DNA from: Chrysomallon squamiferum | Lineage: Eukaryota; Animalia; Mollusca | Reading direction: 5' to 3' | DNA length: 64,000 nt | NCBI GenBank assembly: GCA_012295275.1 | Contig: CM022679.1 | Span: forward strand, 17,670,001 to 17,734,000 | Shown here: positions 203 to 46,635 of the stretch, in pieces | Position numbering within the stretch: the first letter of the stretch is position 1 | Layout of the letters: every line of letters starts with the position of its first letter | Made by a program: the position numbers and the translations under genes | The notes under the pieces: generated by a model | Seen by the model: the letters and a program-made list of their open reading frames with translations, nothing else | Databases searched by the model: none | What the model was told of the DNA's origin: nothing

Positions 203-3200
203 CCGAGATCATCAACATCAGCTGAACTGAAAGACCCATGACTGGATCGGGAGCAGAGATCAGATGAAGCTACTGAAACTGAACTGACAGTACTTGATAC
301 TCGGTCTAATGAGGCATGTTTTGTTGAAGTGTTAACATTAACAGATTCATAATTTTCTTCATCTGTGCCAGTCTTAAACACATCTTCACTGCCAGCTGAC
401 ATGTTAGATATGCTATCTTTGTCATGTTTAGTTTCAGCACTTTGTCTGGCATCATCATCATCAAAACTCACAATGTGGGCTACCTTTTTCTTCTTCTTCT
501 TTTCTTTTTTCTTCCCAGTTTCCACTTCATCTGAAACATGAATTTAGAAAAAAAATAAGATTTCCAGCAACTAACTCTGGGATAAAATTTATCTGATCAT
601 ACATCCAAAGTCATAGTCTTGTATAAATTATATAAAAATACTTGTTTAAGTTGTGTATCAGTTATAAAATTTCAGATTTCTACCCTTTATTCACAAGTTT
701 CAGAATTCTCTAAATGTAACATTTATGCTATATGAATTACATCATCAATCATCTTTCTTAAGCACTGACATATATCATAAATGCAATATATAACATTGAC
801 TATGACACATACTGCCACAGAGTGTGTAGATGCAGACATATACAAACCACTTGGCCAGGTGTCAGCTGCTATCACAGGACTTGGCTCATCTTCAGTATTG
901 GAAATTAAATGAGGTGAAGACTGGCTGATGTGTATACTGTGCATAACTGGACTCTTGTTAAATTCCTGTCGGTCAATGTTGATAGCAAAGAGAATGGATC
1001 CAAGACCTGCAATGGAAAACATATCATTAACAGCAGAATGTCTGATGGAAAAAGTTTGTCTTTGGTAATAAATAAAAATAATTATTTTGTTATCATAATA
1101 ATATGCTAATATAAATATATTATGTCGACAAACAACATTTGAATTTTTTCGTTTACCATGAATTTTAGATAAACAAATCTTCTTTACAGCAAGAATAAAA
1201 TTAGAAATTATTCCTACTGAAATATATCTTACCAGCAGCCATCATTGGAAGCATGCTGCTTCTTTCTTGGTCTCGAAGAAATGCCCAGTCTTCATAATTC
1301 TGCCTGAAACACAATGAATGTATAAAAGAATGATTATTTTTTAAACAGATCTCAGTACATTTCACTGACAAGTGTTATTTGGTGTCAAACATTTGCTATT
1401 TTTGGTTTTAAGATCAAAGCTTTTCTCCACTCCACAAGCTACTCCTTTTGAGCAGCAACAAAGAACTCTGTATTATCTCAAAAATATTTATTCTATAAAT
1501 CACTAAGATAAAAGTTGTGTATCAGATGAGTCAACTGATACTTTATGTAATAACACACTATAAATACCTGAGAATGTCCTCACTGTCAATCAACATGTGC
1601 ATGTAACGTTCCAGTGAATGTTCATTGAAAGCTGCTCTCAGCCAGGCTCGACCTCGGCCCATGTCTGTGTTTACAAGCTTCAGATTGTGAAATCTTTGTA
1701 CATCATGGTGAGTCAGATGTTCCTTTACACAGTGCCAGAACACTAAAATAAATAAATAAATAAATATAAACTGAACACAACAGATAATATCTACTAAACA
1801 TCATGATAACCCATTTGTTAATTTAAAAAAATATATGAATAATAATAACAGCAGAAAAATTCAAATGTCAGACTAGAATACAAATAGTGGATAATGTAAG
1901 AGACAGTAAAAATATTGGCAACTGATAAAATATTTTAAAACTTCACTCAATAATTGAAGCCCTGGGAATAGTCTACACACATCACCATAAATTTTATATG
2001 GAGTGATTTACATATTTATATACATTTTCAGGGTTACAAATTACCTGGTTCGGTTTCCAAATTTTTTATTTCAGAGAAGAAATCTGTTACTTTACCCAAT
2101 CCAGCTCTTTCAGTAACTTGTCTATGAAATTAAATTAATAAATACATAAATAATTTTAACAGGTAAGCATTTTTAATACTATTTGGAATAATGAATAAAA
2201 TTTTAATAAAAAATATAATTAGATAAAAAAAAAAATGAATTATATTGAGTCTATTCTAAAATAAATGCATTGGTCAGAATGAAATGTAAATATTTCACAG
2301 ATCCATAATCTAACTGGTTTAATGTTCAAGCTGTTAAAAAATTATGAAAAAACAAGCTGTGTATTTTAAGTATCACATTGAGCTCAAGCTAGTAGTGTAT
2401 TTTAATTTGTTCATCAGTAACATCCACTTTAATATTATAGTTGAAAGTGACTTTTTGATTTTCATGACAAAGAATTACTTCTGACTTACTTTCATAAAAA
2501 TATTTGTTTTTGAAAAATTCTGCAATTGTACTTGATTTATAAACACACAATATGTTAAATTTAAAAAAATAGAATTGTGATATATAGCCATTAAACTATA
2601 ATTTACTTTTGTCATCAGACATCAAATTACCTCAGTGCCAGCTTGGCTCTGTTGTTATGTCGAAGTCCATGTTGCAGAGAAGCTTCCCATGCAGCACAAA
2701 GACAGGACACTCTATAATGAGAAAAATACCATTACTTAATCCTTAAAATCTTAACAGGACATAAAAAAAGTATTAAACTTGATATGATAAACTTCATTAT
2801 ATTTTGTATGTAAATTTTAATAATTCTCTATAATTAAACAAAGAATAATCTTCCAATTTTACATGTTAATTTTCTTTATGTTAAATATTAGTTTATTTAA
2901 AAATATTATTTAAATTTTTTAAATCAGTACTTGTTACCTGCTATCTGAATCTGTTGCCAACTCTGATCTACCTCCAAACCGAACCTGACACTGAAATATG
3001 AAATAGAACACATTCATTACACATCTTACTACTACTAGATTTTATCAGTCTCTTGATACATTTTCAGCAGCTTTTGATCATAAAAATGATCTATTATTAC
3101 AAATGTTAACATTCTTAACAAATACAAGATTAAAAAAAAGGATTTATAGGACAAGGATCTTTGAAGAGATTTTGAGAAACTTTAATCACAGACTAAAACA

Positions 3201-5282
3201 TTTACTGATATTGTTAAATTCTTTTATTTTTTTATACTTATTTATTGGACTTAAAAAAAGAAGATGAGAAAACATACTTAAATTTCAATATATTGTGTGT
3301 ATGTGTGTGTGCATATGTGTGTATCTTCATATAGTTCACATCATTGTATACTATTTTACATTTTTTAATTTTTTAATATATCCATGCACCACAGCAGATG
3401 TATGCATCCCTAGCAACCACTTAATATGGGCCTGATACATATAGATTATATATGTGGTTTGAATTTTAAACAGAGCACTATCTGGTTTGGCTCCAATCCC
3501 TTTCCATAAATTCCATTGATTCACTGACCATTCAAATAAAAACTAAGTCTGTTTTGTGCTAATTAGGTATCTACTTATTTGAACTAGAAATATCCATGAC
3601 AAAAGAGAATATAAAACCAGCAAAGAAAAGGCAACAGCAGTTGCCAAAGGTACAAGTAATTCAAATAAACATAGTTTTGTTAAATTATTTGCATTATATA
3701 TACTATAGCTATTGAGCTGCATCATCCTCAGACTTGGCACACTGGCTATGCATCCCATACAACATGTGAATAAATGTCAGTGTGATTATTGATCAACTGC
3801 ATTGGAATAATGTACTTCCCAAAGCTGATATTAACCCCAAATCATGTTATAGCATCATGATAACTCCTATTTTCATGCTGTGATAATCATGCTATGACTC
3901 CATAAAATGTTTGATATTTGGCTCATTACTGCATTACTGAAGCAATTGAAAAAAGATACACTCAGTACATATCATGGCAAAATTATCATAAAGAGATATG
4001 ATTGGTCTATCTTTGCTTGCCTAATATTTCTAACTAAATCCAAGGCAACACTTGCCTTGCCATAAAAAAGTTAAAATTCTATCCCTGTATATATATATAT
4101 ATATATATATTTATACATTTATTTATTTATTTATTACCTGTTTTACAGCATCAAGTAGTCGTGTCAAAATGTTTTGTCGTTCATTGAATCTAGGACCATC
4201 ACCTAATGAGAAAATTATTAGAGAAAAAAAGACTCCTAGATTACAGAATAATATTTAAGACATTAAAAAAAAAAAAAATAAAAAAAAAATGTGTTTTTGT
4301 GTAAATAAATAAAAGAACAATAAAAATTTGTTTTAATGTCACATAATTATGGAAATTTTAATTTGTAATGCACTTTATGAAGAGTGCTATTTTGATATGG
4401 GGGAATAAGAAATCACTATTGTAAAATATTTTCTTATTAACATTCAACAATGATAACTAAAGAATGAATGAACATTTTTTTATTATTATTAATTAATTAA
4501 TTAATTTATTTATTTTATTTTTTTTGATATCTTAAAGTCAATCATTATATGAGATTCTGAAACATTATTACTATTGAATGAAGTAAGTTTTCACTTTAGC
4601 TTTCATGTGTGAAGGGTGATAGGATCAAGCTACCTTGGGCAGCCATTTTTCTTTTTCTATTCCAGTCAATAATACATGACAGGATATAGTAACAGCTCAT
4701 TTAAGTAATTATTCTGCATGTGTTTCCTTTGTTTCGGATTTATAATTTTCTGGCATAATTATTATTAATGTATTGTTAAATAAATATTCTTGTATAATCT
4801 TGATTCACAACAAGAAAGAGACTCCAGACTTGATTTTAAAATACACATCTTATATTATGCTTAAAATTATTCTTTCTAATGTATGGCTATTCAGAATTGA
4901 TTTATAGCTAAACAGAATAGTTAAAAACAATATTTTTATGTAGTCGAATAAAAATAAAACATACTTTGAAAAATCACTAAACAAAAATTATATTTAAGAT
5001 ATTCTTAAGGTTTTTTTATCTGAACACTCTAGTCAGTCAGACTGTTATAAATTTATAATATATATATATATATATATATATAAATAGCCTAATTAATATT
5101 TAATGATTTTTTTAAAATAATGTTATGACAATACTGTAAATATATTTAAATCCAATTATAAAAATATATTATTATATTGATCATTCTCTGACAAACTACA
5201 TCAGTTAAATCATCTTGTCTACAAACTGGTAAATAATACTATTTAAATTGAAGATAATAATTAATACGAAACACGAATCATT

Positions 5283-6168: not shown

Positions 6169-8104
6169 ATGGGGCGGCGACCCGCACGTTGGTAAGTTTC
6201 GTTTAATTTTTATAGGCATCGACAAATGTGACTAGTAGATTCATGGTTATGCGATAACGATTAGAAATTATATCCATTAATCGCCATGGAGTAAACGTTC
6301 TTGATCATCATCAATGTTTACTTTTTATATTACATCTGCTTTACTGATGGCCATAACTGAAAACATTCAAAATAATAATAATTATTATTATTATTGTTTT
6401 TATTAGAATCTAAAACTGTTGTAATGTTATTAATAATATTGTTATTGCATATTAAATGTTTATTTAGTTTTTTCAAATAGAGGAAAGTCTAACATCATAA
6501 TGGAATTATCAAATAGAAATGAGTATCATTTCCACAAATTTTTATTTTGGCAATCGATTTTTCAAAGTATGTTTTATTTATTTGAATGTTATGGCATATT
6601 TTTTCATCCACTGCACACACGTAACTGAAAAGCTTACTCAGTAAGTTACTGTTGATCTAACAAAGCCAAAAAGATAATTGGGGGAAATAAAAGATTTGAA
6701 CAGTTAAATTTTGGTAAATTCTGAATACCTAAAATGCTTTGTTTCTGTGAATGATTGATGATTGTATAACATGAATGTTGCACTGTTTTGTTTTTCAGTT
6801 ATCGGTACTGCAAAAATAAACCTTATCCAAAATCACGTTTCTGTAGAGGTGTTCCAGGTAAAGTAAACACGGTCTTAGAATTAAAATGAAAATACATCCA
6901 TTAGTAAGTACACAATTAGTATACCTGCTGCAAATCCTTCTAGTCTGAAAAAGAGATAAATGATTTTGATTTGTATAAAATATCTGAATTATAAGGCTAT
7001 AAAAATCATTGTTAAAATGGAAATTTTATTTCAGATCCAAAGATTCGTATCTTTGATCTTGGGCGAAAGAAGGCCTCTGTGGATGAATTTCCATTGTGTA
7101 TTCATCTGATTTCTGATGAATATGAACAACTTTCATCTGAAGCTCTTGAGGCAGGTCGCATCTGTGCTAACAAGTACTTGGTGAAGAACTGTGGCAAGGA
7201 TGCTTTTCATCTAAGGGTGCGATTACATCCGTTCCATGTCATCCGAATCAACAAGATGTTGTCATGTGCAGGTGCTGATAGGTGAGCTACATTTTGTATA
7301 ATAATATTGACAGATCCAGTTTGATAATCTTGAAAAGAATGGAAATATGTGAATTGGAGAATAACTTGAGATGGCATTTGAAGATAGGGTGTCACTTATA
7401 AATTATTTCAATGCTAGTGTTTTCTGTAGAAGTAAATAGTTTAAATAATGTAGAAATTAGTACCAGTAAATGTCTCATAATTTAAAGTACATGTAAATTA
7501 TATTTTTCCAGACTTCAGACAGGTATGCGTGGAGCATGGGGCAAGCCACAAGGAACTGTTGCCAGAGTACACATTGGTCAGCCCATTATGTCTGTGAGGG
7601 CTCGAGATCAGCACCAGGCAGCAGTTATTGAGGCTCTGAGACGAGCCAAATTTAAGTACCCTGGCAGACAAAAGGTATGTTAAAAAATAAAAAAATTCAC
7701 TGGTCTGTGGAACCTCAGAAATTAGACAGAATGGTTTTTTTTGTTTATATATGTTGTGTAAACAAACATTTTTAAAGCTGATAAACACATTTTTAGTTTT
7801 GGTTTACTATATTCCACCAAGTTAACATAAAAGCATAATAAAAGTACTATAGAATTGGGTACAAACTATTTAAATATCCACTTATAACATTTTGGGTTTA
7901 AAGTAATTTTTATTCTTTTTAAAAAAAAATTAGATTGTTGTTTCAAAGAAATGGGGATTCACCAAGTGGCCACGTGACAAGTTTGAGGAAATGAGGGCTG
8001 AAGGACTTTTGATTCCTGATGGAGTTAGTGTCCAATACAAACCTCCACATGGGCCTCTGAAGGCCTGGATGGAACGTGTTGCAGCCACACATAGATCCAA
8101 GTGA
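6169..8104 (+). CDS. RPL10: 60S ribosomal protein L10 (uL16), 220 aa
   Basis: Exons 6169-6191, 6799-6857, 7035-7281, 7512-7674, 7934-8104: [41 protein letters not shown]...[26 protein letters not shown]...[22 protein letters not shown]...; AATAAA at about 8117. Confidence 0.99.
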
Positions 8105-21595: not shown

Positions 21596-29631
<8,036 letters not shown>

Positions 29632-32286
29632 GGTTGAAAATGTCTAACAAAACGATGTTATTTTTCAAAAGATGATTCCTTTGTTAGAATTCTGTTCTCA
29701 CTAATCCATGTGATAAGCCTTGCATTGAAAGAACACATAGCTTGAGTAATCCTACCACCGCTACGGCCTGCCTATGAAAAAGTCTAATAGGATGACGATG
29801 GTCGATATCTAGTAGTGTCCTTAGCACAGTTGGGGAAAAAAAAAAAAAAAAAAAAAAATGTAATATCTTTCTCGCATGAACTAGACAGTTTTGCGTCGCA
29901 TCAATAGTCTAAATTTATCGAAACAATCAACGTCTGCTTTACGTTTTACCATATAATTAGACCATCATTATGAAAAGAATATGTTTCCGTCGGTACTCCT
30001 CAGCAGAGAATGTGTAAAAACAGTGAATCACACGTACACACACTTCTCGATTGCTGCCAAAGCTGGCAGCCGACAAAGCGATAAAGCTCATAGGCGGGAA
30101 ATAATCGATTGAGGCATTCTCTCTTATACATGTGCATGCACATGATAACGATTATTCTACGACTTTGATTCTACCGTACCAAACCTCATACTTACTTTTC
30201 TAAAAATACATATTTCTTCCAAAAAGTCCTACCGTGTCGACGATTTTAGTTATCATATTATATTCCATTGTGTTTAATTATTTTGTCGTTTGGGATTTTT
30301 GTTGATGTTGTTTTTATCGCTGTTTTCTTTACCGCTTTCTTTATCAATTTATCGTCATCAGATGGACTTAACAAGAGTTTACCCATTTCTTCACGTTAAA
30401 TGTCTCGTGAAATAGCTATAGATTCGTTTTGTTGCAGTGTTCATTGTGTAAGCAGGTGACAAGACATGAAATAGTTATCTGTCATCATTTGAAAAATTGC
30501 CATTTAATATCAACTGTTAGAAAGTGATCGGAGGAAACCAATAACAATAATAAAAATGGTAATTGTTGCAATTACAATAGCAATAACAGTAACAACAACT
30601 AATAATATTACATTGCCATGGAAGTGACTTTCTCACAGCGATGATTTACTGTAGACATAAATGCAAAAATGATTACTTTAAATATAATTAAATGTCATAA
30701 CACATACACACACGTAAATCACATCTATACATGTAAATAACAGTAGCTACTGACATATTGACAAAAGTATGGTAATTGTGTTTACAGTCATCTAAAAAGA
30801 CGCGTGTGTCTCAGTATACATGTATTCTAATTATTTACTGGTTAAATAAATGTGTACAGCGTTATGTGATCGGAGATTGAATAAAGTTATTTGTTTATTT
30901 GTATAATTCATTTATTTATTCTTACTGGCTTATTCAATTACCTGCCACCAGTGTATTACTGACTGATAAATATACACGTATTTAATGAAAACAGGTTTGT
31001 CCTCTAACTTCAAGTACATTGGTTATAACAACATGTGACTATTAACATTTTCATTTAATTTTTAATATGAGATCATCTAAAACGTTACATGCTGATTACC
31101 AAAATGTAACATCATCACCACCATTATCATCATAATAATCATCATCATCTGTATTATTATTATTATTATATTTAAAAACATACAATAATGTTAGACATTC
31201 CCACATCTGTAATTTCAATAATGAAAACGGTATTGATTTTTTTCTTCTTTCTGGATAGTTTTATTGTTAGTCTGCTTAGTCGATTACTATGACCGGCAGG
31301 TTAATGTTTTCTGCTCACTATACAGTTATTTCTGGTGACTTAACGGGAACATTTCAAAGGATAGACAGTGTGTATTTGTCATTTTTCTTTGTAATGCTGT
31401 TTTATTTAGCACCAATGATAGACTTCATTATAATTATAAAACTGTGCTTTAAAGAGTACTAATGGATTTTAAAATTGATAAGAACAGAGCCAGATGGAGA
31501 TAAAAAAAGACTGAAAATTGATGGTAAATTAATCGATTTTAAGGTTGTTAGATACTTTGATCTAATCCCCACTCCAAAAGATACAATTGGTGAGCTGATT
31601 TTAGTATATATATATGTTTGTATGATGTTATGTATGTGTATGGATGTAAATATGTATACATGTGTGTATTGGTGTGTGTATTAATAGTATCTAACAGGAC
31701 TATTTAGGTTAAAGACTATGTATTTTATATCAGTACTTTTATTTTTAGTTTAAATCAGCATATTATTGTTTGATTAATATAATAATAAGAACAAAAACAA
31801 AAACAATCTAATACTCTAACATTGTCTTTAGGCAGAAAAATCTATTCTCTGAATTGTAAACTAATGATGAAAGTGTTTCAGTCTGCTATGAATGTAAGTA
31901 TGATGATTGATATATTGATTTATTGGGTATCGGAATAAATAAGTGAATGTTTAATGATGCAGAACGAAAACATTGGCCAGTAGGTGTTAAGAAAATGATA
32001 AATGATGAATTAAATATCAGTGATGTAAAGGTTGTAAAACATTACATGGTTCTGAATCAAATATAAACATAATGGTTTTTTCAAGTTGCATTTTAAACTA
32101 ATTATCGTTGCTCATAACAAATTTATAACAGTAAAATAATATTATTATAAAAAAATTAAAACCACTACGTTTCCCCTTCATGCATGAATTCATGACATAA
32201 TCAAGTTTCCATACCAAACTGATGGCAGTACTTTTTCTGAAAATGCTAGAAGAAACTCCAGAAACAGAAACAAACAAACCAAACAT

Positions 32287-34813: not shown

Positions 34814-37800
34814 TCATGAATTCCACCAAGACAATAGTCCAAGGCCCGGTTCACTGATAGAACCCTGAAAATAAAAACAATCATTCTTTATCCAGCCTTT
34901 CTGTGGTCTTTAAGATGTTTGAAAAAAATCGTAACCTAAACATATAAAAAAAAAAAAAAAAAAAAAAATTGATGTATTAAGGAAAGGTAAAGAAAAAATC
35001 AAATTAACATCTGAAAATATAAATAAAGAGGCATAAACAGAAAATTTAGCATGGGAAATTATCTTGATTACACAAACAACAAGCTAACTACAGACAACAT
35101 TAGCTAATCAAAAATGTAACCAGTAATATTAAACATGTAATTCAGTAAATGTAACCAGGAGTAAATAAATAACCTTAATTACAGCTTTAGTTGCAGCTTG
35201 GCAAAACTACTGTCGTATGAACAGTTTCTACTGAGTTAAACACATTCTTGGATAACTCACCGTTAATGAGAATGGAGACTTTCGTGATTCTGCATCAAGG
35301 AAAGTAGTTTCAGGTGTCTCTGGAATTCCACCATCTGGTCCACACGGAGTCGTGTCAGTAAACACTTCATCAACAACACGGAATCTGAAATCAGTTACAT
35401 GAATTAACACTGGTTTTAACGTTCATGTAAACTTGTTGAATTTAATTCAACACTGGTTTTATCTGTATTTACATAAACAATTGAAAATGGTTATAATTAT
35501 ACTTAAATCGGTTTTCAATATTTACGTAAAATCTGAAATCAGTGACATTACACTTAAATTAACATTTTAGATTAAATACTCACATATAGATCTGAAATCA
35601 GTTAAATTATATATCAAACATTTTATTCATAGATTTTGTCTGAATTTGTAAATGAAAAGTAAAAAGTACTGCTTTTTTAACAACTTTATTGCTGTATTTT
35701 TGTTGTTATTTTTTATTTTTTTTGTTATTGGTTTTCTTTCTTTTTCTTTTATATTTTTTATATTTCAATAAAATATATTTCAGAAATATGAGGCTAATTT
35801 ACAGACGCTTTCAAGATGTCAAAATAATAATCAATCTGACCATAAAAATCTTTATATTAAATGAATAAGTTTCTGCTTAGAGAAACAAAATTATTATTTT
35901 TTTAAATATATATTTAGCATATCTGATAAATGCTTGTATAGACAGGTACACACTTTCTGCACTGGTTTGTTATTATTATTATTATTAGTTGCTGTTGTAA
36001 TAGCTGCAGGATTACCATTTTTATTACCAATATTACTATGACATTATAAATGATTATTGTCATTATTATTTTTCAATACCCGTGGAATTCAAAATCTTAT
36101 CAACGTTTCTCAGTGAAGAAGTTTAGTAAATATCGAAATGTCAGTAAACATAAAATTTCAAATAAACAATTCCTAATGAAGAAAATTAATAATGTACAAA
36201 AATGAACATAAATCTAACATTGTTCAAAATGTTGTGTATAGGCATTGTCAAATACAAGATTTCTTAGAATACTGTGACATCCAGCCTGTCTCATTATTTT
36301 AATTATTAGAAAATTACAGGCTGTATATATCAACTATGGCTAATACACATGAAAATACAAACTAATGATTTGACCATACTAAGTATGGGGATGTTGGTTT
36401 TCATTAATTCAAGACTAATTAATGGCATACACCCACAAAAAACAAAGATGATCTATTTTGAAGTCTACCCACGCTTTATATTTCTGTATTACTGAATACA
36501 ACAACATTAGCATGCAGTTAGTTATATTGAAATTAATCATCTTATTTAACCATAGTTCAATCTCCTGTGGGTATTTATGAGCTGGTTTTATTTTTGTTTT
36601 TCATAACAAACACACACACACAAACACACAATACACAAAGTTCCGGCAAGCCTAGTGTTTCATACAGCCCACCTGATTTCTCAAATATTTTAAACACTGT
36701 CAGATATGTGAATTGAAACAAACTTCAGTTTCACATGTGTTAGTCACAGATAAATTCTAAGATGAAATTACCTGCTTACAGTAATATTAATATCATTAAG
36801 ACAATGTTTGAACCACTGATAAGGATAATACGATGCTTACAAGAGCTATCTTAGCTCATTTCCTCTCCATGGTCTTAGCTTTGTTCACCAGGTTTTTGTA
36901 AATTGTAATTCATATTCTATATTTTATACAACATAATTGCACTGGACACTGATGACATCCTACTGGGAAATGTGTTAAAAGATTGTAAATAAAACATATA
37001 GAATATTTCTAAACAAAATAAACTACTTCAAAGTATATCTGTGCTGGTATAAATAATTCATCTACTAAAGTTCATTATAATTTTACTTGTTTTTTTCTTC
37101 TTTTTTTTGTTGTTTTTTTTTGCTGTTTGTATGTTAGCTTTGGAACTCTGTCATAGCTTAATGCAGTTTATGATATTAAAATAATACTGTTATGCAGCAT
37201 CAGAACACCATGGTTTTATCTCTTTACAACTGGATTTCTGACATAATCATATATATGTACATGGCTGCCTGAAGAAACGTTGTAGCAAATTGGTCACTAC
37301 AGAAAAATGGCCATGCCAAGATATTTTTATTTTGTTTTCATACTACATAAAAAACAACTCTAAGTATTCTGAATACATTTAGATTATTTCTTTACACATA
37401 TACAGGTATAGTTTAATCTTATTATTTTGTTTTTACTTCATTTTACTTATGATGTATTATGGACCTGCAACATGCAGACAAAAAAGGTAAATTTATAATA
37501 AAAAATCTTTTTTTTTTTTTTTTATGAAAATGTATTGGTAATTTGTTTATATTTTTATATTTTTTATTTATTTAATTTTTATTTTTGTAGTTGTTTAAAA
37601 AATATTAAAACTAAAACAATATAAACATTATTGTAACTACTTTCATTTTAGCTTAATTAGTCAGCTTGCTCCAAATATATCTTTCATTTATTTATCACAG
37701 TTTTGTTTACTAATGATGAAAATGTCAGAATGTCTGGCATACTGATATATATCCCAGTTAGAATTTGGTTTGGAGATAAGGATCATCATTCAGAAACATC

Positions 37801-40800
37801 CAGTAGCTGTTCCAAAATTTTATAAAATGTATGTATAACCATTATTTCTTAAAACAAACAAAACCATTAATCATTCAATAACAACAAGGTGAAGAAAAAT
37901 GAAGGAAACATCTGTATCCAAATGTCATTTCATAAAATAAAATAGTAAAAAGAAAAAGAAAATTAGAAAGACAGCAAGACACTGAAATAATTTATAATGA
38001 AACAGCCCAAATACAGCAAATAAAAACAAAAAAATTCCAGATAATGAAAGCCTGAAAATAACAAGGAGGGTGTATTCTAAATTAAGTCTGAAATTTGTAT
38101 GTTTACAAGAACACTTACCTAATCTGTTCCCCAATGTCCATAAACAAATTGTGTTTGTTGCCTTCGTCTGGTTGATATTCCCAGTACCACAACTGTTCTT
38201 GCTCATCACGAATACCATTAAAGATAACTCAAACTAATAGTCTCTTAAAATATCTTTCTTTCATATTTAACATGGAAATATGTTTTAGTGCTGTTGTCTA
38301 CATAAACAACAGTTACAGAACTTCTACTGTAATATAGAAAACAGCATTAATACTTATAGTCTAAAAATGTTTCATTTGACTAAAATGACCACTACTTATT
38401 CTTTATGTATTCATCCCACTAACATCATAACAGATATATTGAATATTCTGTTTAATTTCTTGGTCTTGGCAAAAATGTACTAAGAATGGAAATTCTGATA
38501 AACTTGTAATTTGTGTTCACAATGTTCAAAGGATACAATTTTGAGGGATGCTGCATGGAATCTGCTGGAATTAGTATGTCATCAAAGAAACCAATAGAAA
38601 CTTGAAAACAATAGGAAACAAATGTTATTTTATTATCAGAAAAAAAAAAAAAAAAAAAAAAATTAGATTTAAAAAAAAAAAGAAGAAGAAAAAAAGAAAT
38701 GAAAATAAAAAGAATTAATAATTCCTTGTTTTATATGCCAACAAAAATAATGTCAACAAAATTCTTTCCTGACATGCACAATACTAGCTGTGAACGTAAG
38801 AATTTAAATGTCATGAAAATAATTAATGTCTTTTCAAACAACTTGAAGATCAAAATTTTGATATTTGGTTATTTCCCTTTATGTTATTTTACTTCCAAGT
38901 TTGTTAAAGTAATGAAGATATTTCAAAGCTTATCTGAAATTCTCATTTTTTTTTACAAATGCTGATATTAACACATAAACTTTGATCTGATGATGTTCAA
39001 AATCAAAATTTAATGACTAATTTTAAAAAGTAATTTAATTAAAATAAATTCAGTTTTCATAAACAAAGACATGCAGAGACAGCTTTGGACCTGAAGTGAA
39101 AACTTTACATGTACATTACACATAAAGCTACATAATCAGAAGCATATATTCTGGGTATGTTAAGAGAGTGCTGTATACCCACCCAGGATGGTAAATTCAT
39201 GATAAATATTAAAGTCAGTCAATACTATGATCACAGATCATCATAGGAAACTAATTATTCTGTCCCTTGTTATGAAATATTGTGGTAGTGGTTCACCTAA
39301 TATGCCACATGGTGGATAATGGGACAGTGACAAAACTAAGAAGTAAAAGAATGAGTTTCATCTCACCATATACAGAAGTTAATTTTTTATATGTGTTTAT
39401 CCAGTTTAAAAAAGATTAAAATCCATATAACTGTGCACACAAAACAACAGAAACAATAATTAACCTTTGATATTCACTGTCACACCATTGGCTATGCCCA
39501 AAAGTACTGCCAAAGAATAGTGACACAAAAGGTAAATTATAGCTTTTTAACTCCAGATTATATAAATTCCAAACATTCAGCAGTAAATGACAGATAATTA
39601 ATTACTTTTTTGGTGATGAATATTATCAACAAATAGAATAAATAAAGCAATTGGCTATCTTTACAAACTCACCAATAACTCCCTCTTTGCTGCTTCCTTT
39701 AATCTTTCCTATCAAAATTTCATCAATAAATGGCCGAAATACTACATATCGGAAATGAACTGAAAATAACAAATAATTCATAAAAGCATAATAGAAACCA
39801 ATATGTTAAATATAAAGATTTAAGTATATTTTAAAGGTGTCATGATTCTAAAAATTAGCAGATTTAAATGAATTTTACATTTCATTGTTTCTGTTGTCAT
39901 TAATCCATAAAGCTTTTAAAACTACTAACTTGAAATATTCTAACAACCTTCCATTTCCAAAAACAAAACTGACACTGAGACACTAGGAATACATATATAT
40001 ATACACACATACATACATACAAGCAATATAAAATTATTAAAGATCAGCATAAGAAATTGAGAGTTTTCAACAGAAATTTAATTTTTAAGTAGTAATTAAA
40101 AAACTAAACACATGACAGTGATAGACCATCAGGCTTACATCATTATTTCAAATACTGCATGGTGATAAAACCAATAACCAACAACATTTTTTTAAGCCAT
40201 GGAAAAGAAACAAATTATAAAGATTATTAATGTTACTTATCTAAGGATATACATTTCATAGTTTTGCTATCAATATTAATTATATGTTATCACAAAAGTA
40301 ATTTTAAAAATTAATGATTTCCTTGCTTAAATGCATAAATTTGTTTTAATAAATAGTTGTTAAAATTTATTAAAAAGCAATTTTCAGATGATTCTTTTTT
40401 TTTTTTTTTTTTTTGTCAGGATTTTTATTTATTTATTTATTGTTTTGTTTTTGCTGTTGTTTATTTTTGTTTAAAAGTTTGTAAAAGTATAAATCAAGAA
40501 TGCTCACATTGTATTATGTTTTTGTTGTATTTACCTATTGTATGTGATGCACCATCTCCTGGGAATATATAGCTATCTTCAAATTTTTCAATGTCCCATA
40601 AGGCTATGCATAATCCAACATTGTACAGAACCTTGAAATTAAAATAAGTGATTCTGTTTTCACAAATTTTACACGTAAAATTGTTTTACATTTAAAAAAA
40701 ATAATTATAAAAAAAAAAATAAAAAAAATAAGGTAAAAAAAAGAGAAGAGAAATAAAGAAAAAAAAGAGAAAATAATAAATAAAGACAAATAAAAATGTG

Positions 40801-41275
40801 CAAAATTATCTAGTTCTTTTAAATATGCTAAAAAGTATCTTTTCTTTTATTTAAATATTTTTAATAGTGTCATCAGTTTATATATATGTGTATGTCGTGT
40901 GTTTGTGTGCCATGTGTGTGTTAGAATAATAAAGAACAAATAACACATCAGAATTTTGGGCATTTGCAAATAATCTTCTGGCAACTATAAACATGTCTTA
41001 TGTTTATCATTTTCAAAAGATTATTTGCTGTTGTCCAAGATACTACTGTCTAATCCTGCAAATTTTGCAACCTGTTCAAAAAATTATAAATAATTTTAGT
41101 AAAATTGCCTCAAAAAATGTTACTGATAACATTTTACTTTAAGTATGTATGTAAGAAAATTTACTTTATTTGCCAATTTTTTATTAAGAGTTTCAATGAT
41201 GGCATCTTTTGTGTCAAGATGAAACAACCATGGTGGAATCCGCACTGTGTCTTTCATTTCAGAGAGGACAAACAT
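34814..41275 (-). CDS. POLR3H: RNA polymerase III subunit RPC8/C25, 207 aa
   Basis: Exons 41165-41275, 40535-40631, 39673-39759, 38537-38600, 38119-38208, 35261-35384, 34814-34864: [16 protein letters not shown]...[22 protein letters not shown]...[32 protein letters not shown]...[12 protein letters not shown]...[13 protein letters not shown]...[18 protein letters not shown]...[17 protein letters not shown] probable non-coding exon ends at 42107. The gene is missed by the ORF track. Confidence 0.96.
38209..38536 (-). other. U12-type (minor spliceosome) intron of POLR3H with apparent GT-CG termini
   Basis: 5' end is GTATCCTTT (38536 downward). Branch-like TCTTTAAT at 38224-38217. The junction that restores K-F-D-E-Q-E-Q is ...ggtattcg|T GAT GAG. 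Confidence 0.8.
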
Positions 41276-42475: not shown

Positions 42476-45400
42476 ATGAAACGGCAATTAATTTTGTTTG
42501 GTTTTCTCGTCAGCATTACATGTGAAGAAATTGTTGATAATGGAGGATGGTACGTCTCTATTTAAATGCTAACTGACATTAAAAACTATGAAACAATAAA
42601 ACAGAACATAAAAACAACAAAAATAAAAGCCATTTTTATGATTTGTATCACTTAGGATTTTACTAGTTACATTATACTGTGTAAGTAGAACATTATTTAA
42701 ACTAGTTTAACATGTCTATTTTATTGCACATCTGCATAATGAATTTTATTTACTGTCCAATTACATTTTTAGGTCAACAGACAAGAAATTTCTCCTTGCC
42801 CAACCAGGACCGTGTTCTATTGATATTAGAGATACCAGCTCTCTGACTCAAAAAGAATTTGTTGAAGAGTTTGTATATAATTACGTTTAAATGTATGATA
42901 CAGTTTGAAATACACTTTTCACATGGGTTGTTATTACTAATATTTAGTCTATTAGCTACTTCATTTTATTAAGACAAATAGTCACAAACTGTTAGGAATT
43001 TTTTATCATTATTTAAATAAATAATTATTAAAAAAACATTAAAAAATTTGGAAGTAGAAATTGACAGCCACTGCATTTATATTGCTAATTTTCAGTTAGC
43101 AACAAAGGATCTTTGATACCTGTCTTTCCATAGACAATTCAGTACACATCACAGCTAAAAGGCCCAAACAGTTCTAAAAATCATCACAATAGTGTGTTTT
43201 TTATTCACAGATATGCTTACAAAAAGCCTGTTGTGATAAGAGGAGCTTCAAACAATACTGTAAGTACTTACAGAGTGAAAAAAACAACAGCTGGTTACTA
43301 AAAACATTTCATCTGCAGACTTGAATTGGTTACTCACTACAGTATAAATATATATATATATATAATATATGACATTTAGACAAACTCAGATAAGTAAATT
43401 TAAAAATAGTAAATATTTGGCAGTCTTAACAATTAATTTAATTGCAGTTATTTTCTTATTTTCAGAAATTTCAAGATATGTGCAGAAAAAATTCACTTCT
43501 TTCCAAATTTGGATCCAAAAAAATACGTCTAAGTTCTGCAAACACATATTCGTATACAAAAGGTAACATCTCCTCAAAAATTATTTTCACAGCAGCATAA
43601 CTATATTAATAAATATTTATAAATGTTTATTCAGATTTTTTCAAACTCTGGCTATAAAGTTACTAGGAACAGTATTTTAATACAGTGAATGTTTAATAAC
43701 ATTAAGGAAGAATGATAAACAGATATTTATGTAATGATTCAGTAATTATTAAGTAAAATTCTCCAATAATTAACCTTTTTTTTTCCTTCTACATTTAGTC
43801 ACTTCTTTTAGAAGAGTTAAACTGGTTTTAGTAAGTTTTATTTTTGAAGTGTTCATTCTGTAGTTATGTTTAATATATTTTTTACAAGTATATTTTTACA
43901 TGTGATTTATAATATTAACAAATATAAATATGTTTTTCTAGTTGATATCAGCCTTTACAAGTATGTAAAAGAAGTGATGAGACCTCAGTCATTAGACATG
44001 CTTGGCAATGGTGACTTAATGTTTCTTATTCATTTACTAATTGCATGGATAATATATCATATGTGCCTAAAGATCAAACTGTTTTCACATTAATAAGTAA
44101 CATCTGATTTAATGTTTGTTATTGCAGTGATATGTTTAAATTGATTTGAAATGGAGAACAGCATGACTAGGTGAACAGAAAACTAAATGCAGTGTTTATT
44201 AAAATTATTAATTATATTTCACTTCAAAAATTATTTTGTACTGCAATTACAGATTTGTTAGTCACATTGTTTTGTTTACAATTTTCTTTTTTTTTTCTTT
44301 AGAAACACTCTACTGGTTTGGTGACAACAACTATACTGAATTTGTGGATTTATTTAATGAATACAAACCACCTCCCTATCATGTACCAGGTATGACAGGT
44401 GCCTATAGTTTTGGACTGGCAGGTGATTATATTATATAAAATCTCAGAATACACCATTAATTAGATGTTATTTTAATATCAGATTCTAAGAAAGAAAATT
44501 AATAATGAATATATGTATATCTATATGTGAATACATTAAGAATGTGTGTGTGTATGTAGATATATGTATAGAGATGTATGTGTATGTGTGTGTGTATATA
44601 ATACATATATATATATACACACACAGATACACACATATATACACATCTATATATATATATATATATACATGTACACAAATACATATAAGTGTGTGTGTGT
44701 GTGTGTGTGTGTACACACATACACATTTTCATTCTTTGAAATATTTTATATATACAAAATATTAACAAAGTCTTGTATTTTTTTGTTGTATAATATAAAA
44801 TTCTAACAGGCTTGTAATATTATTCATTTGGAAAATTTAATATTTCATGTAGGAGCTGGTACAGGTGTTCCCTTCCATTTCCATGGGCCAGGATTTGGAG
44901 AAGTTGTTTTTGGCAGAAAGGTAGAGTTTGTTTGTTAAAGGCATTTAATATAAGAAATATTTTTAAAGAAATTGAATTTTTTCTATTGAATTCATAAAAT
45001 AAATAACACTGTCATGACAAAAACTGAAAATATTTGTTGAATTAAATGATAGCTGGTATCCTCAAGATCTGTGCATCCTCCATTGGCAGACTGATCACTG
45101 GGCAAAGGTCTTGCTACATACTGGAAGAGATGGTGGGCCCACCATTCGTCAGCAATGGCAGCAATATCCACCACCTGTTTATTTAGTGAACTTCCTTTTG
45201 TATAATAAATTAAACAAATACTTCGATTTTATTTAATTGCAAGTAAAATAAACTTGTTAATAGTTAATGCATTTGATGGAATTATTTAAAGAAGTATTTT
45301 TGACAAACAAGTAATTTGAACATTGATCAAAGTACTTGTACCTTGAACATTTTCTGTACAATCCCTTTGTTAAACTAACACCAGATACACCGATTCCCAC

Positions 45401-46123
45401 CATCCCTTTCATAAATTCTGGGGAGATCACTGCTACGACAAAAATATCACTTAACAGTACACAAAATGCATTTATACTAATTTTAAATATTACAAATAAA
45501 TTTATAATATCTTACAGAGATGGTTTATGTATCCACCTCATTTTGAGCCACATTTTGATCCCAATAGGACAACCTTACACTGGATGGTGGAAGAATACCC
45601 CAAACTTGAACATTGGCAACAGCCACTGGAATGTACAATAAAACCAGGAGAGGTTTGAGATTTTCTACCTAAAATTTATTTTTTTGTTGTTTTTTCACTG
45701 CAAATGAATGATTATGTATGGGTTTTTTAATAACATAAACATTATTTAAAATAATGACGAATCATGTGATTTCAATTAAATGGAAAAATTGATCCGAACT
45801 TTTTTTAATTAGTAGTACCATATATTGTTTATTTTCAGTTTTGAAAATGATTATATAATTTTGTAATGGTATATTCCAAAATGGTAGATTCTGTAAAATA
45901 ATTTCAATCTTCTGAATCCATAAAATATTATATAATATAGTGAGATGGGGGAAATATTTTACTAAGAATCTTATACATTTTTGATATATATTAAAAGTAA
46001 TAATAAAATTATAATTATTAGTTCAATATTTTTCAGATTATATACTTTCCTGATCGATGGTGGCATGGAACTTTAAATACTGATACTAGTGTTTTTATTT
46101 CAACATTTTTAGCTACTATTTGA
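42476..46123 (+). CDS. JMJD8: JmjC domain-containing protein 8, 264 aa, with N-terminal signal peptide
   Basis: Exons 42476-42549, 42773-42868, 43211-43259, 43466-43562, 43942-44010, 44303-44422, 44853-44920, 45518-45652, 46037-46123: MKRQLILFGFLVSITCEEIVDNGGW...RLSSANTYSY...GNETLYWFGDNNYTE...AYSFGLAGAGTGVPFHFHGPGFGEVVFGRKRWFMYPP...PLECTIKPGEIIYFPDRWWHGTLNTDTSVFISTFLATI*. Confidence 0.97.
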
Positions 46124-46552: not shown

Positions 46553-46635
46553 TCTATAGTGCACTCATCAGTATTGTATGTAGTTCTACTTGTCACCAGT
46601 AGAACTACATACAATACTGATGAGTGCACTGTAGA
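46553..46635. repeat. Near-perfect inverted repeat (38-bp stem, 7-nt loop)
   Basis: TCTATAGTGCACTCATCAGTATTGTATGTAGTTCTACT-tgtcacc-AGTAGAACTACATACAATACTGATGAGTGCACTGTAGA; a single T/G mismatch. Confidence 0.95.

What the first reader, a model, noticed from the sequence alone, without database searches (positions are those of the whole stretch)
38209..38536. U12-type intron in POLR3H that appears to use a non-canonical CG 3' splice site (GT-CG)
Seen: the intron starts with the minor-spliceosome signature GTATCCTTT and has a branch-like TTATCTTTAAT about 9-10 nt from the junction, with no polypyrimidine tract. The conserved peptide P-x-K-F-D-E-x-E-Q is restored only by splicing at ...ggtattCG|TGATGAG. 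The two nearest upstream AGs give an in-frame TAA, and the three nearest downstream AGs shift the frame. Established: U12 acceptors are positioned largely by distance from the branch point and tolerate rare terminal dinucleotides. Inference: an essential Pol III subunit depends on a GT-CG minor intron, which could be a rate-limiting control point and would be mis-modelled by gene predictors.
Basis: partly seen in the sequence, partly recalled or inferred. Interest (0 to 1): 0.85.

Follow-up and report, generated by a model that had tools for sequence, protein, structure and literature searches.

The report
Real minor intron ending in CG
In a gene for an RNA polymerase III subunit, likely from a snail, one intron is cut out at a CG instead of the usual AG; it is likely removed by the rare 'minor' splicing machine, and is a new case of a known but very uncommon intron type that is probably tolerated rather than regulatory.

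Summary
Intron 4 of POLR3H/RPC8 (38536-38209, minus strand, 328 nt, phase 2) begins GTATCCTTT and ends CG. RNA contigs from 2 of 2 RNA runs join 38537 to 38208 with no positional ambiguity. DNA contigs from 4 of 4 same-species runs laid (three studies) read CG, so this is no assembly error. The intron sits at an old U12 position. It is GT-AG in human, in a close relative (organism B) and in 13 of 13 orthologous loci with both ends, so the CG is derived and lineage-specific. Loss of the A of an ancestral CAG would explain both the CG and the short branch distance (inferred). GT-CG minor introns are known: 46 of 73,671 conserved animal minor introns, and human NAPG and OCRL have CG alternative acceptors. 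What is unusual here is that CG is the only junction seen and the only nearby route to the conserved protein. Intron-retaining RNA contigs exist (roughly 17% and 31% by contig depth), but human GT-AG POLR3H also shows 6-20% retention, so a special rate-limiting role is not shown. Verdict: new member of a known, rare kind.

The parts
41165..41275 (-). POLR3H/RPC8 coding exon 1 (ATG at 41275)
   Evidence: Pfam PF03876, E 1.5e-06; gene model
40535..40631 (-). exon 2
   Evidence: Pfam PF03876, E 2.4e-05
39673..39759 (-). exon 3
   Evidence: its 3' end appears as the loose end of RNA contigs at 38601; no Pfam hit alone
38537..38600 (-). exon 4, ends in the first two bases of the conserved Phe120 codon
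   Evidence: Pfam PF08292, E 0.002; RNA contigs
38209..38536 (-). intron 4, 328 nt, phase 2, U12-type, GT-CG
   Evidence: RNA joint 38208>38537 in X8 and X9
38528..38536 (-). U12-type 5' splice site GTATCCTTT
   Evidence: sequence; consensus RUAUCCUU in PMC10853781
38217..38224 (-). candidate U12 branch sequence TCTTTAAT; predicted branch A at 38218 (-10)
   Evidence: 7 of 8 positions match UCCUURAY; use as branch point not shown
38209..38210 (-). CG 3' terminal dinucleotide (context TTCG)
   Evidence: 0 differences in 4 DNA runs and in the intron-retaining RNA contigs of 2 RNA runs
38202..38203 (-). nearest downstream AG (GAG context, 7 nt into exon 5, branch A at -17); frameshifting, not seen used
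   Evidence: no such joint (contigs drop rare forms)
38119..38208 (-). exon 5
   Evidence: Pfam PF08292, E 0.00024; RNA contigs
35261..35384 (-). exon 6
   Evidence: its start appears as the loose end of RNA contigs at 38119
34814..34864 (-). exon 7, coding part to TGA

Best explanation
Intron 4 of this POLR3H gene is spliced out at a CG instead of an AG; it is likely removed by the minor (U12) spliceosome, and the CG is likely a recent, tolerated change to an ancient GT-AG minor intron. Shown: the junction, the genomic CG, the U12-type donor, and GT-AG at the same position in other animals. Inferred: U11/U12 recognises the perfect donor together with the branch sequence TCTTTAAT (its one non-consensus base can still pair as G-U). 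The acceptor is then set by distance from the branch point and not by an AG-binding step. At exon ligation the terminal G(-1) would still pair with G(+1) and the pyrimidine at -3 is kept, so only the A(-2) contact with the branch adenosine is lost. The competing AG 7 nt downstream has a disfavoured G at -3 and breaks the frame. The simplest origin is deletion of the A from an ancestral CAG, which also shortens the branch distance from about -11 to -10. The likely cost is somewhat slower splicing, with retained transcripts carrying a stop at codon 148 that would be degraded.
For: RNA joint GT..CG with 0 ambiguous letters in 2 of 2 RNA runs, absent from the DNA runs. CG in 4 of 4 same-species DNA runs laid, from three studies. 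Human POLR3H has a U12 GT-AG intron at the same K-F codon (donor AAGTT|GTATCCT), listed as responsive to U12, U4atac and U6atac morpholinos. Organism B ends TCCTTAAC + 9 nt ending CCAG, branch A at -11. 13 of 13 orthologous metagenome loci with both ends are GT-AG, 12 of them ending CAG, branch A at -12 to -17. All 123 homologues covering the junction keep the same length across it. In the yeast P complex G(-1) pairs with G(+1), A(-2) with the branch A, and a pyrimidine is preferred at -3 (bioRxiv 10.1101/212811). U12 acceptors depend on branch distance, and non-canonical ends splice, often less efficiently (PMC3584512). GT-CG is catalogued among minor introns, and the human NAPG and OCRL CG acceptors also have a pyrimidine at -3 and a branch A at about -11/-12 (read).
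Against: U12 dependence and branch-point use were not tested in this species; no genome was held in which to look for U11/U12 snRNAs. The branch A at -10 is 1 nt short of the stated 11-13 nt optimum, and the branch helix is among the weakest scored (-3.8 kcal/mol, against -3.4 to -6.5 in 8 orthologues). The structural argument comes from the yeast major spliceosome. Both RNA runs are from one study and are contigs, not reads, so minor acceptors could be hidden. The deletion origin rests on one close relative whose intron is too diverged to align. Retention of 17% and 31% by contig depth could be a real regulatory effect.
Confidence: 0.82

Rival explanations
1. The CG was kept by selection as a throttle: it makes this minor intron especially slow or condition-sensitive and so limits RPC8 and Pol III output in this lineage.
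For: Intron-retaining contigs at 17% and 31% of junction depth, while RNA contigs run from exon 4 into exon 3 and from exon 5 into exon 6 sequence (loose ends). The retained form has a stop 457 nt before the last junction. CG is present in every same-species run laid. A rate-limiting role has been proposed for U12 introns in general (PMC3584512).
Against: CG is not conserved in organism B, human or 13 other loci. The human GT-AG orthologue already shows 0.06-0.20 retention in control samples. Contig depth is a poor measure of expression, and two samples show no regulation.
Confidence: 0.12
2. The junction is real but is made by the major (U2) spliceosome using a non-canonical CG, as in the GT-CG introns listed for Drosophila.
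For: FlyBase lists 8 GT-CG introns not marked U12 (PMC4528330 Table 3). U2-type AG-less acceptors exist (PMC10853781). The branch sequence is degenerate.
Against: The donor is a perfect U12 consensus with C at +5 and T at -1. All 8 fly cases have a similar alternative splice next to them, whereas no in-frame AG is usable here. All orthologues examined carry U12 signals.
Confidence: 0.04
3. Artefact: assembly error, rare allele, RNA editing to AG, template switching, or mRNA from a paralogue or retrocopy.
For: None found.
Against: 0 differences in four DNA runs from three studies (depth 10-135) and in intron-retaining RNA contigs. No repeat at the junction (both = 0). The joined form is absent from the DNA runs. 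No second exon copy appears in X2 or X4 at 80% likeness.
Confidence: 0.02

Closest known systems
GT-CG subtype of U12-type introns (Larue and Roy 2023, PMC10639083, Supplementary Table S1)
   Same: Same termini and class; 46 of 73,671 conserved animal minor introns (0.062%) and 5 in plants.
   Different: The table gives counts only, no genes and no RNA evidence per intron; whether any of the 46 is a sole acceptor, or lies in POLR3H, could not be seen.
Human NAPG and OCRL U12 introns with CG acceptors (de Wolf et al. 2021, PMC8280824, supplementary tables)
   Same: U12 donor, CG end with a pyrimidine at -3 (NAPG also ends TTCG), branch A about 11-12 nt upstream.
   Different: Both are listed as alternatives beside another acceptor of the same donor (AG 14 nt further in NAPG, AT 3 nt further in OCRL). 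Here CG is the only junction seen and no AG gives the protein.
POLR3H minor intron of human and mouse (PMC8280824, PMC6717393, PMC11347168 supplements)
   Same: Same gene, same codon and phase, U12 donor and branch sequence.
   Different: The human intron is GT-AG, 1205 nt long, branch A at -17.
Non-canonical U12 subtype switching (Sheth et al. 2006, PMC1557818)
   Same: Single-position changes of termini between orthologues are frequent: 14 of 24 human-mouse pairs with a non-canonical member had switched.
   Different: Their Table 2 of 66 non-canonical U12 introns has GT-GG, GT-TG and GT-AT but no GT-CG.

Membership tests
U12-type intron | 5' splice site RUAUCCUU | tested here: met
   GTATCCTTT at 38536-38528; consensus from PMC10853781
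U12-type intron | Branch sequence UCCUURAY near the 3' end | tested here: met
   TCTTTAAT, 7 of 8 positions; the other five introns of the gene have 3-4 mismatches to TCCTTAAC at best
U12-type intron | Short branch-to-acceptor distance, optimum 11-13 nt | tested here: inconclusive
   Predicted branch A at -10, short as expected but 1 nt under the optimum and shorter than in any orthologue seen (-11 to -17)
U12-type intron | No distinct polypyrimidine tract | tested here: inconclusive
   0.58 pyrimidines at -14..-3, equal to the lowest of the five U2-type introns of the gene
U12-type intron | Orthologous position is U12-type in other species | tested here: met
   Human, organism B, 13 loci with both ends; the metagenome loci were selected by a pattern that demands a U12 donor
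U12-type intron | Removal depends on U11, U12, U4atac and U6atac snRNPs | not testable with these tools
   Shown only for the human orthologue in a published table; needs knock-down here
GT-CG subtype | Transcript-supported GT and CG termini without junction ambiguity | tested here: met
   Joint in X8 and X9, both = 0; genomic CG in four DNA runs
POLR3H/RPC8 (Rpc25) | SHS2 N-terminal domain (PF03876) plus Rpc25 domain (PF08292), high identity to RPC8 | tested here: met
   4 of 6 exon peptides scanned hit these families; 190 of 207 residues identical to P0001, which matches human RPC8 chain 7a6h_G at E 2e-89

The most novel reading that the evidence does not exclude
A single-base loss removed the near-invariant A(-2) from the minor intron of an essential Pol III subunit and became fixed. 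The resulting CG out-competes a canonical AG that lies at a branch distance (-17) used by the human orthologue, and its slower splicing now acts as a lineage-specific throttle on RNA polymerase III supply.
Probability: 0.12. Interest if true: 0.7.

Novelty: new member of a known kind. Interest (0 to 1): 0.42.

Why it matters
The A at -2 is the one 3' position shared by both main U12 subtypes, and it is thought to contact the branch adenosine. Only 234 of 54,903 GT-xG minor introns in animals (0.43%) lack it. A transcript-supported case in which a housekeeping gene gets its full-length protein only through a CG acceptor is a clean natural test of how far the minor spliceosome chooses its acceptor by position instead of sequence. 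A close relative with the ancestral AG provides a ready control. In practice it is also a junction that AG-only aligners and gene predictors would miss.

Tried and rejected
No whole genome is held, so U11/U12 snRNAs and other minor introns of the species could not be searched. Eight other RTATCCTY matches in the window were only looked at in context; none was linked to an exon, so they give no in-species comparison. In-frame non-AG alternatives (AT at 38212, GG at 38215, GA at 38206) would add or remove residues where all 123 homologues have constant length, and RNA shows only the CG joint. RNA contigs give no cover over the laid part of intron 5 or the end of intron 3 apart from a low-complexity spot; this is not counted as evidence, because contigs drop low-depth paths. 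The pattern scan gave 86 loci, of which 66 showed no RPC8 exon 4 and were dropped, and 7 of the 20 RPC8 loci lacked exon 5. Earlier findings of this scan: nothing for this place or for GT-CG; eight U12 notes on other genomes do not bear on it. The two experimental papers of Dietrich et al. (2001, 2005) on U12 acceptor dinucleotides are not held. Full-text searches found no paper on a POLR3H CG acceptor or on a U12 GT-CG intron in main text: POLR3H + minor intron, GT-CG + U12, GT-CG + intron + splice, GU-CG, mollusc or gastropod minor introns. These searches do not cover supplements or subscription journals, and the positive GT-CG records were in fact found in supplements.

Full report
Gene and organism. 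The finding lies in a seven-exon gene on the minus strand, 41275-34814. Joined by coordinates, the exons give 207 residues with 190 identities to P0001, which its source names RPC8-like of Gigantopelta aegis. Four of six exon peptides scanned hit the Rpb7/Rpc25 Pfam families, and P0001 matches human RPC8 in Pol III structures. The gene is POLR3H. The host is inferred to be a gastropod related to that species. Five introns are ordinary GT-AG; intron 4 (38536-38209, 328 nt, phase 2) reads GTATCCTTT...TCTTTAATGGTATTCG.

Is the CG real? Eleven runs were listed and eight laid. DNA runs X3 and X5 and X2 and X4, from three studies, each cover the laid stretch in one contig with no difference. Both RNA runs, X8 and X9 (one study), contain a contig joining 38208 to 38537 that skips 328 bases with ends GT..CG on the coding strand and no letters that fit either side. 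This joint is absent from the DNA runs. Their loose ends continue into exon 3 and exon 6 sequence. Both RNA runs also hold a contig across the whole intron with no difference, so the precursor is not edited to AG. No second copy of the exons appears in X2 or X4 at 80% likeness. Limits: all data are contigs, which drop rare variants, and the near-identical DNA runs may include the source of the window.

No AG rescues the protein. Of 16 AGs between 38330 and 38125, fourteen shift the frame and the two in-frame ones run into stops. All 123 homologues that cover the junction, of 125 fetched, keep the same length across it. The AG 7 nt downstream deserves note. It lies at -17 from the predicted branch A, the distance used in human and in five of the metagenome loci, and its product would stop only 2 nt before the last junction, so by the usual 50-nt rule (recalled) it would escape decay. 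Still no such joint was listed. Its -3 base is G.

Orthologues. Human POLR3H has a U12 GT-AG intron at the same codon (supplement rows of PMC8280824; PMC6717393), and it responds to U12, U4atac and U6atac morpholinos (supplement row of PMC11347168). Organism B (X10 and X11, one sample) has exons about 89% alike; its listed exon 5 changes give the L-E-D residues of P0001 (read by hand). Its alignment runs through the nine donor bases (single bases there are not listed), and its acceptor reads TCCTTAAC, then nine bases ending CCAG, with the branch A at -11. A pattern scan of metagenome contigs gave 86 loci, 20 with RPC8 exon 4 and 13 with both intron ends. All 13 are GT-AG, 12 end in CAG, and the branch A lies at -12 to -17 (L047 read by hand). 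They fall into about eight peptide types, so they are not 13 independent events, and the pattern selects for U12 donors but not for acceptors. The CG is therefore derived and, as far as seen, confined to this species.

Mechanism. Shown: junction, termini, donor consensus, orthology. Inferred: removal by the minor spliceosome. U12 introns are defined by donor and branch sequences, lack a clear pyrimidine tract, and place the acceptor by distance, optimum 11-13 nt; non-canonical ends splice, often less efficiently (passages of PMC3584512). The branch sequence here matches UCCUURAY (passages of PMC10853781) at 7 of 8 positions. In the yeast P complex, G(-1) pairs with G(+1), A(-2) pairs with the branch adenosine, and Prp8 favours a pyrimidine at -3; the authors expect a similar mechanism in the minor spliceosome (passages of bioRxiv 10.1101/212811). 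TTCG keeps G(-1) and the -3 pyrimidine and loses only the A(-2) contact. Deleting the A of an ancestral CAG explains both the CG and the one-base shorter distance in one step, whereas substitution needs more changes. This is parsimony only, since the introns no longer align.

Rate limitation. Contig depths give 7.6 retained against 37.6 spliced in X8 and 6.4 against 14.1 in X9, or 17% and 31%. The retained form stops at codon 148. The tool warns that such depths are a poor measure of expression. Human POLR3H, with AG, shows 0.056, 0.112 and 0.197 retention in three control sets, and typical minor introns about 0.08-0.13 (passages of PMC8280824). The values here are at or above the top of that range but come from a different library type. 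An extra cost of the CG is plausible but not shown, and the lack of conservation argues against an old regulatory role.

What is known. GT-CG makes up 46 of 73,671 conserved animal minor introns (Supplementary Table S1 of PMC10639083; passages). Human NAPG and OCRL have CG acceptors listed as alternatives beside an AG or AT acceptor (file 13 of that supplement was not searched). Sheth et al. list no GT-CG among 66 non-canonical U12 introns but report frequent single-base switching of termini (passages and tables of PMC1557818). FlyBase lists 8 GT-CG introns, all with a nearby alternative and not marked U12 (PMC4528330). PMC2831892, PMC7367187 and PMC4176328 were seen as passages and add only general background. 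The Dietrich papers were not held, so experimental data on GT-CG efficiency were not seen. My searches found no report of this particular intron.

Verdict. A real, transcript-supported GT-CG intron, very likely U12-type, fixed in the samples seen and recently derived from GT-AG. It is a new member of a known rare subtype. Its distinctive feature is that the CG appears to be obligatory in a housekeeping gene. Interest 0.42.

Noticed in passing
protein P0008 (Magallana gigas RPC8 model), junction region: The model reads S-R-L-Y-P-F-E-Q instead of S-R-F-D-D-K-E-Q. L-Y-P-F is what the U12 donor gives when read as exon, so the oyster likely has the same minor intron and the model misplaces it (1 of 123 homologues).
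   Followed up: partly
window 44212-45655, + strand: Exon-like frames that resemble JMJD8 (label recalled; three of these frames and a neighbouring one gave no Pfam hit). The gene would lie head-to-head with POLR3H.
   Followed up: no
window 28522-29643, - strand: Long exon with F-box and leucine-rich repeats, FBXL16-like by recall. FBXL16 and JMJD8 are neighbours in human (recalled), which hints at old synteny.
   Followed up: partly
window 7016-8101 (+) and 1561-1800 (-): Ribosomal protein L10e exons and a RUN-domain exon (Pfam; SNX29-like by recall).
   Followed up: partly
window 46557-46632, +: Only Rfam match in the window: mir-142 at 57.2 bits against a cut-off of 57; probably an AT-rich hairpin, since mir-142 is recalled as vertebrate.
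   Followed up: no
window 38338-38377: A 40-base piece inside the U12 intron matches another genomic contig in X2 and X4 with 7 differences, perhaps a short dispersed repeat.
   Followed up: no
window 22670-23125: About 450 bases of uninterrupted CT/AG dinucleotide repeat.
   Followed up: no
L047, donor at minus-strand match 4001-4025: The orthologous U12 intron is only about 93 nt long here, against 241-1401 nt in the other 12 loci.
   Followed up: no
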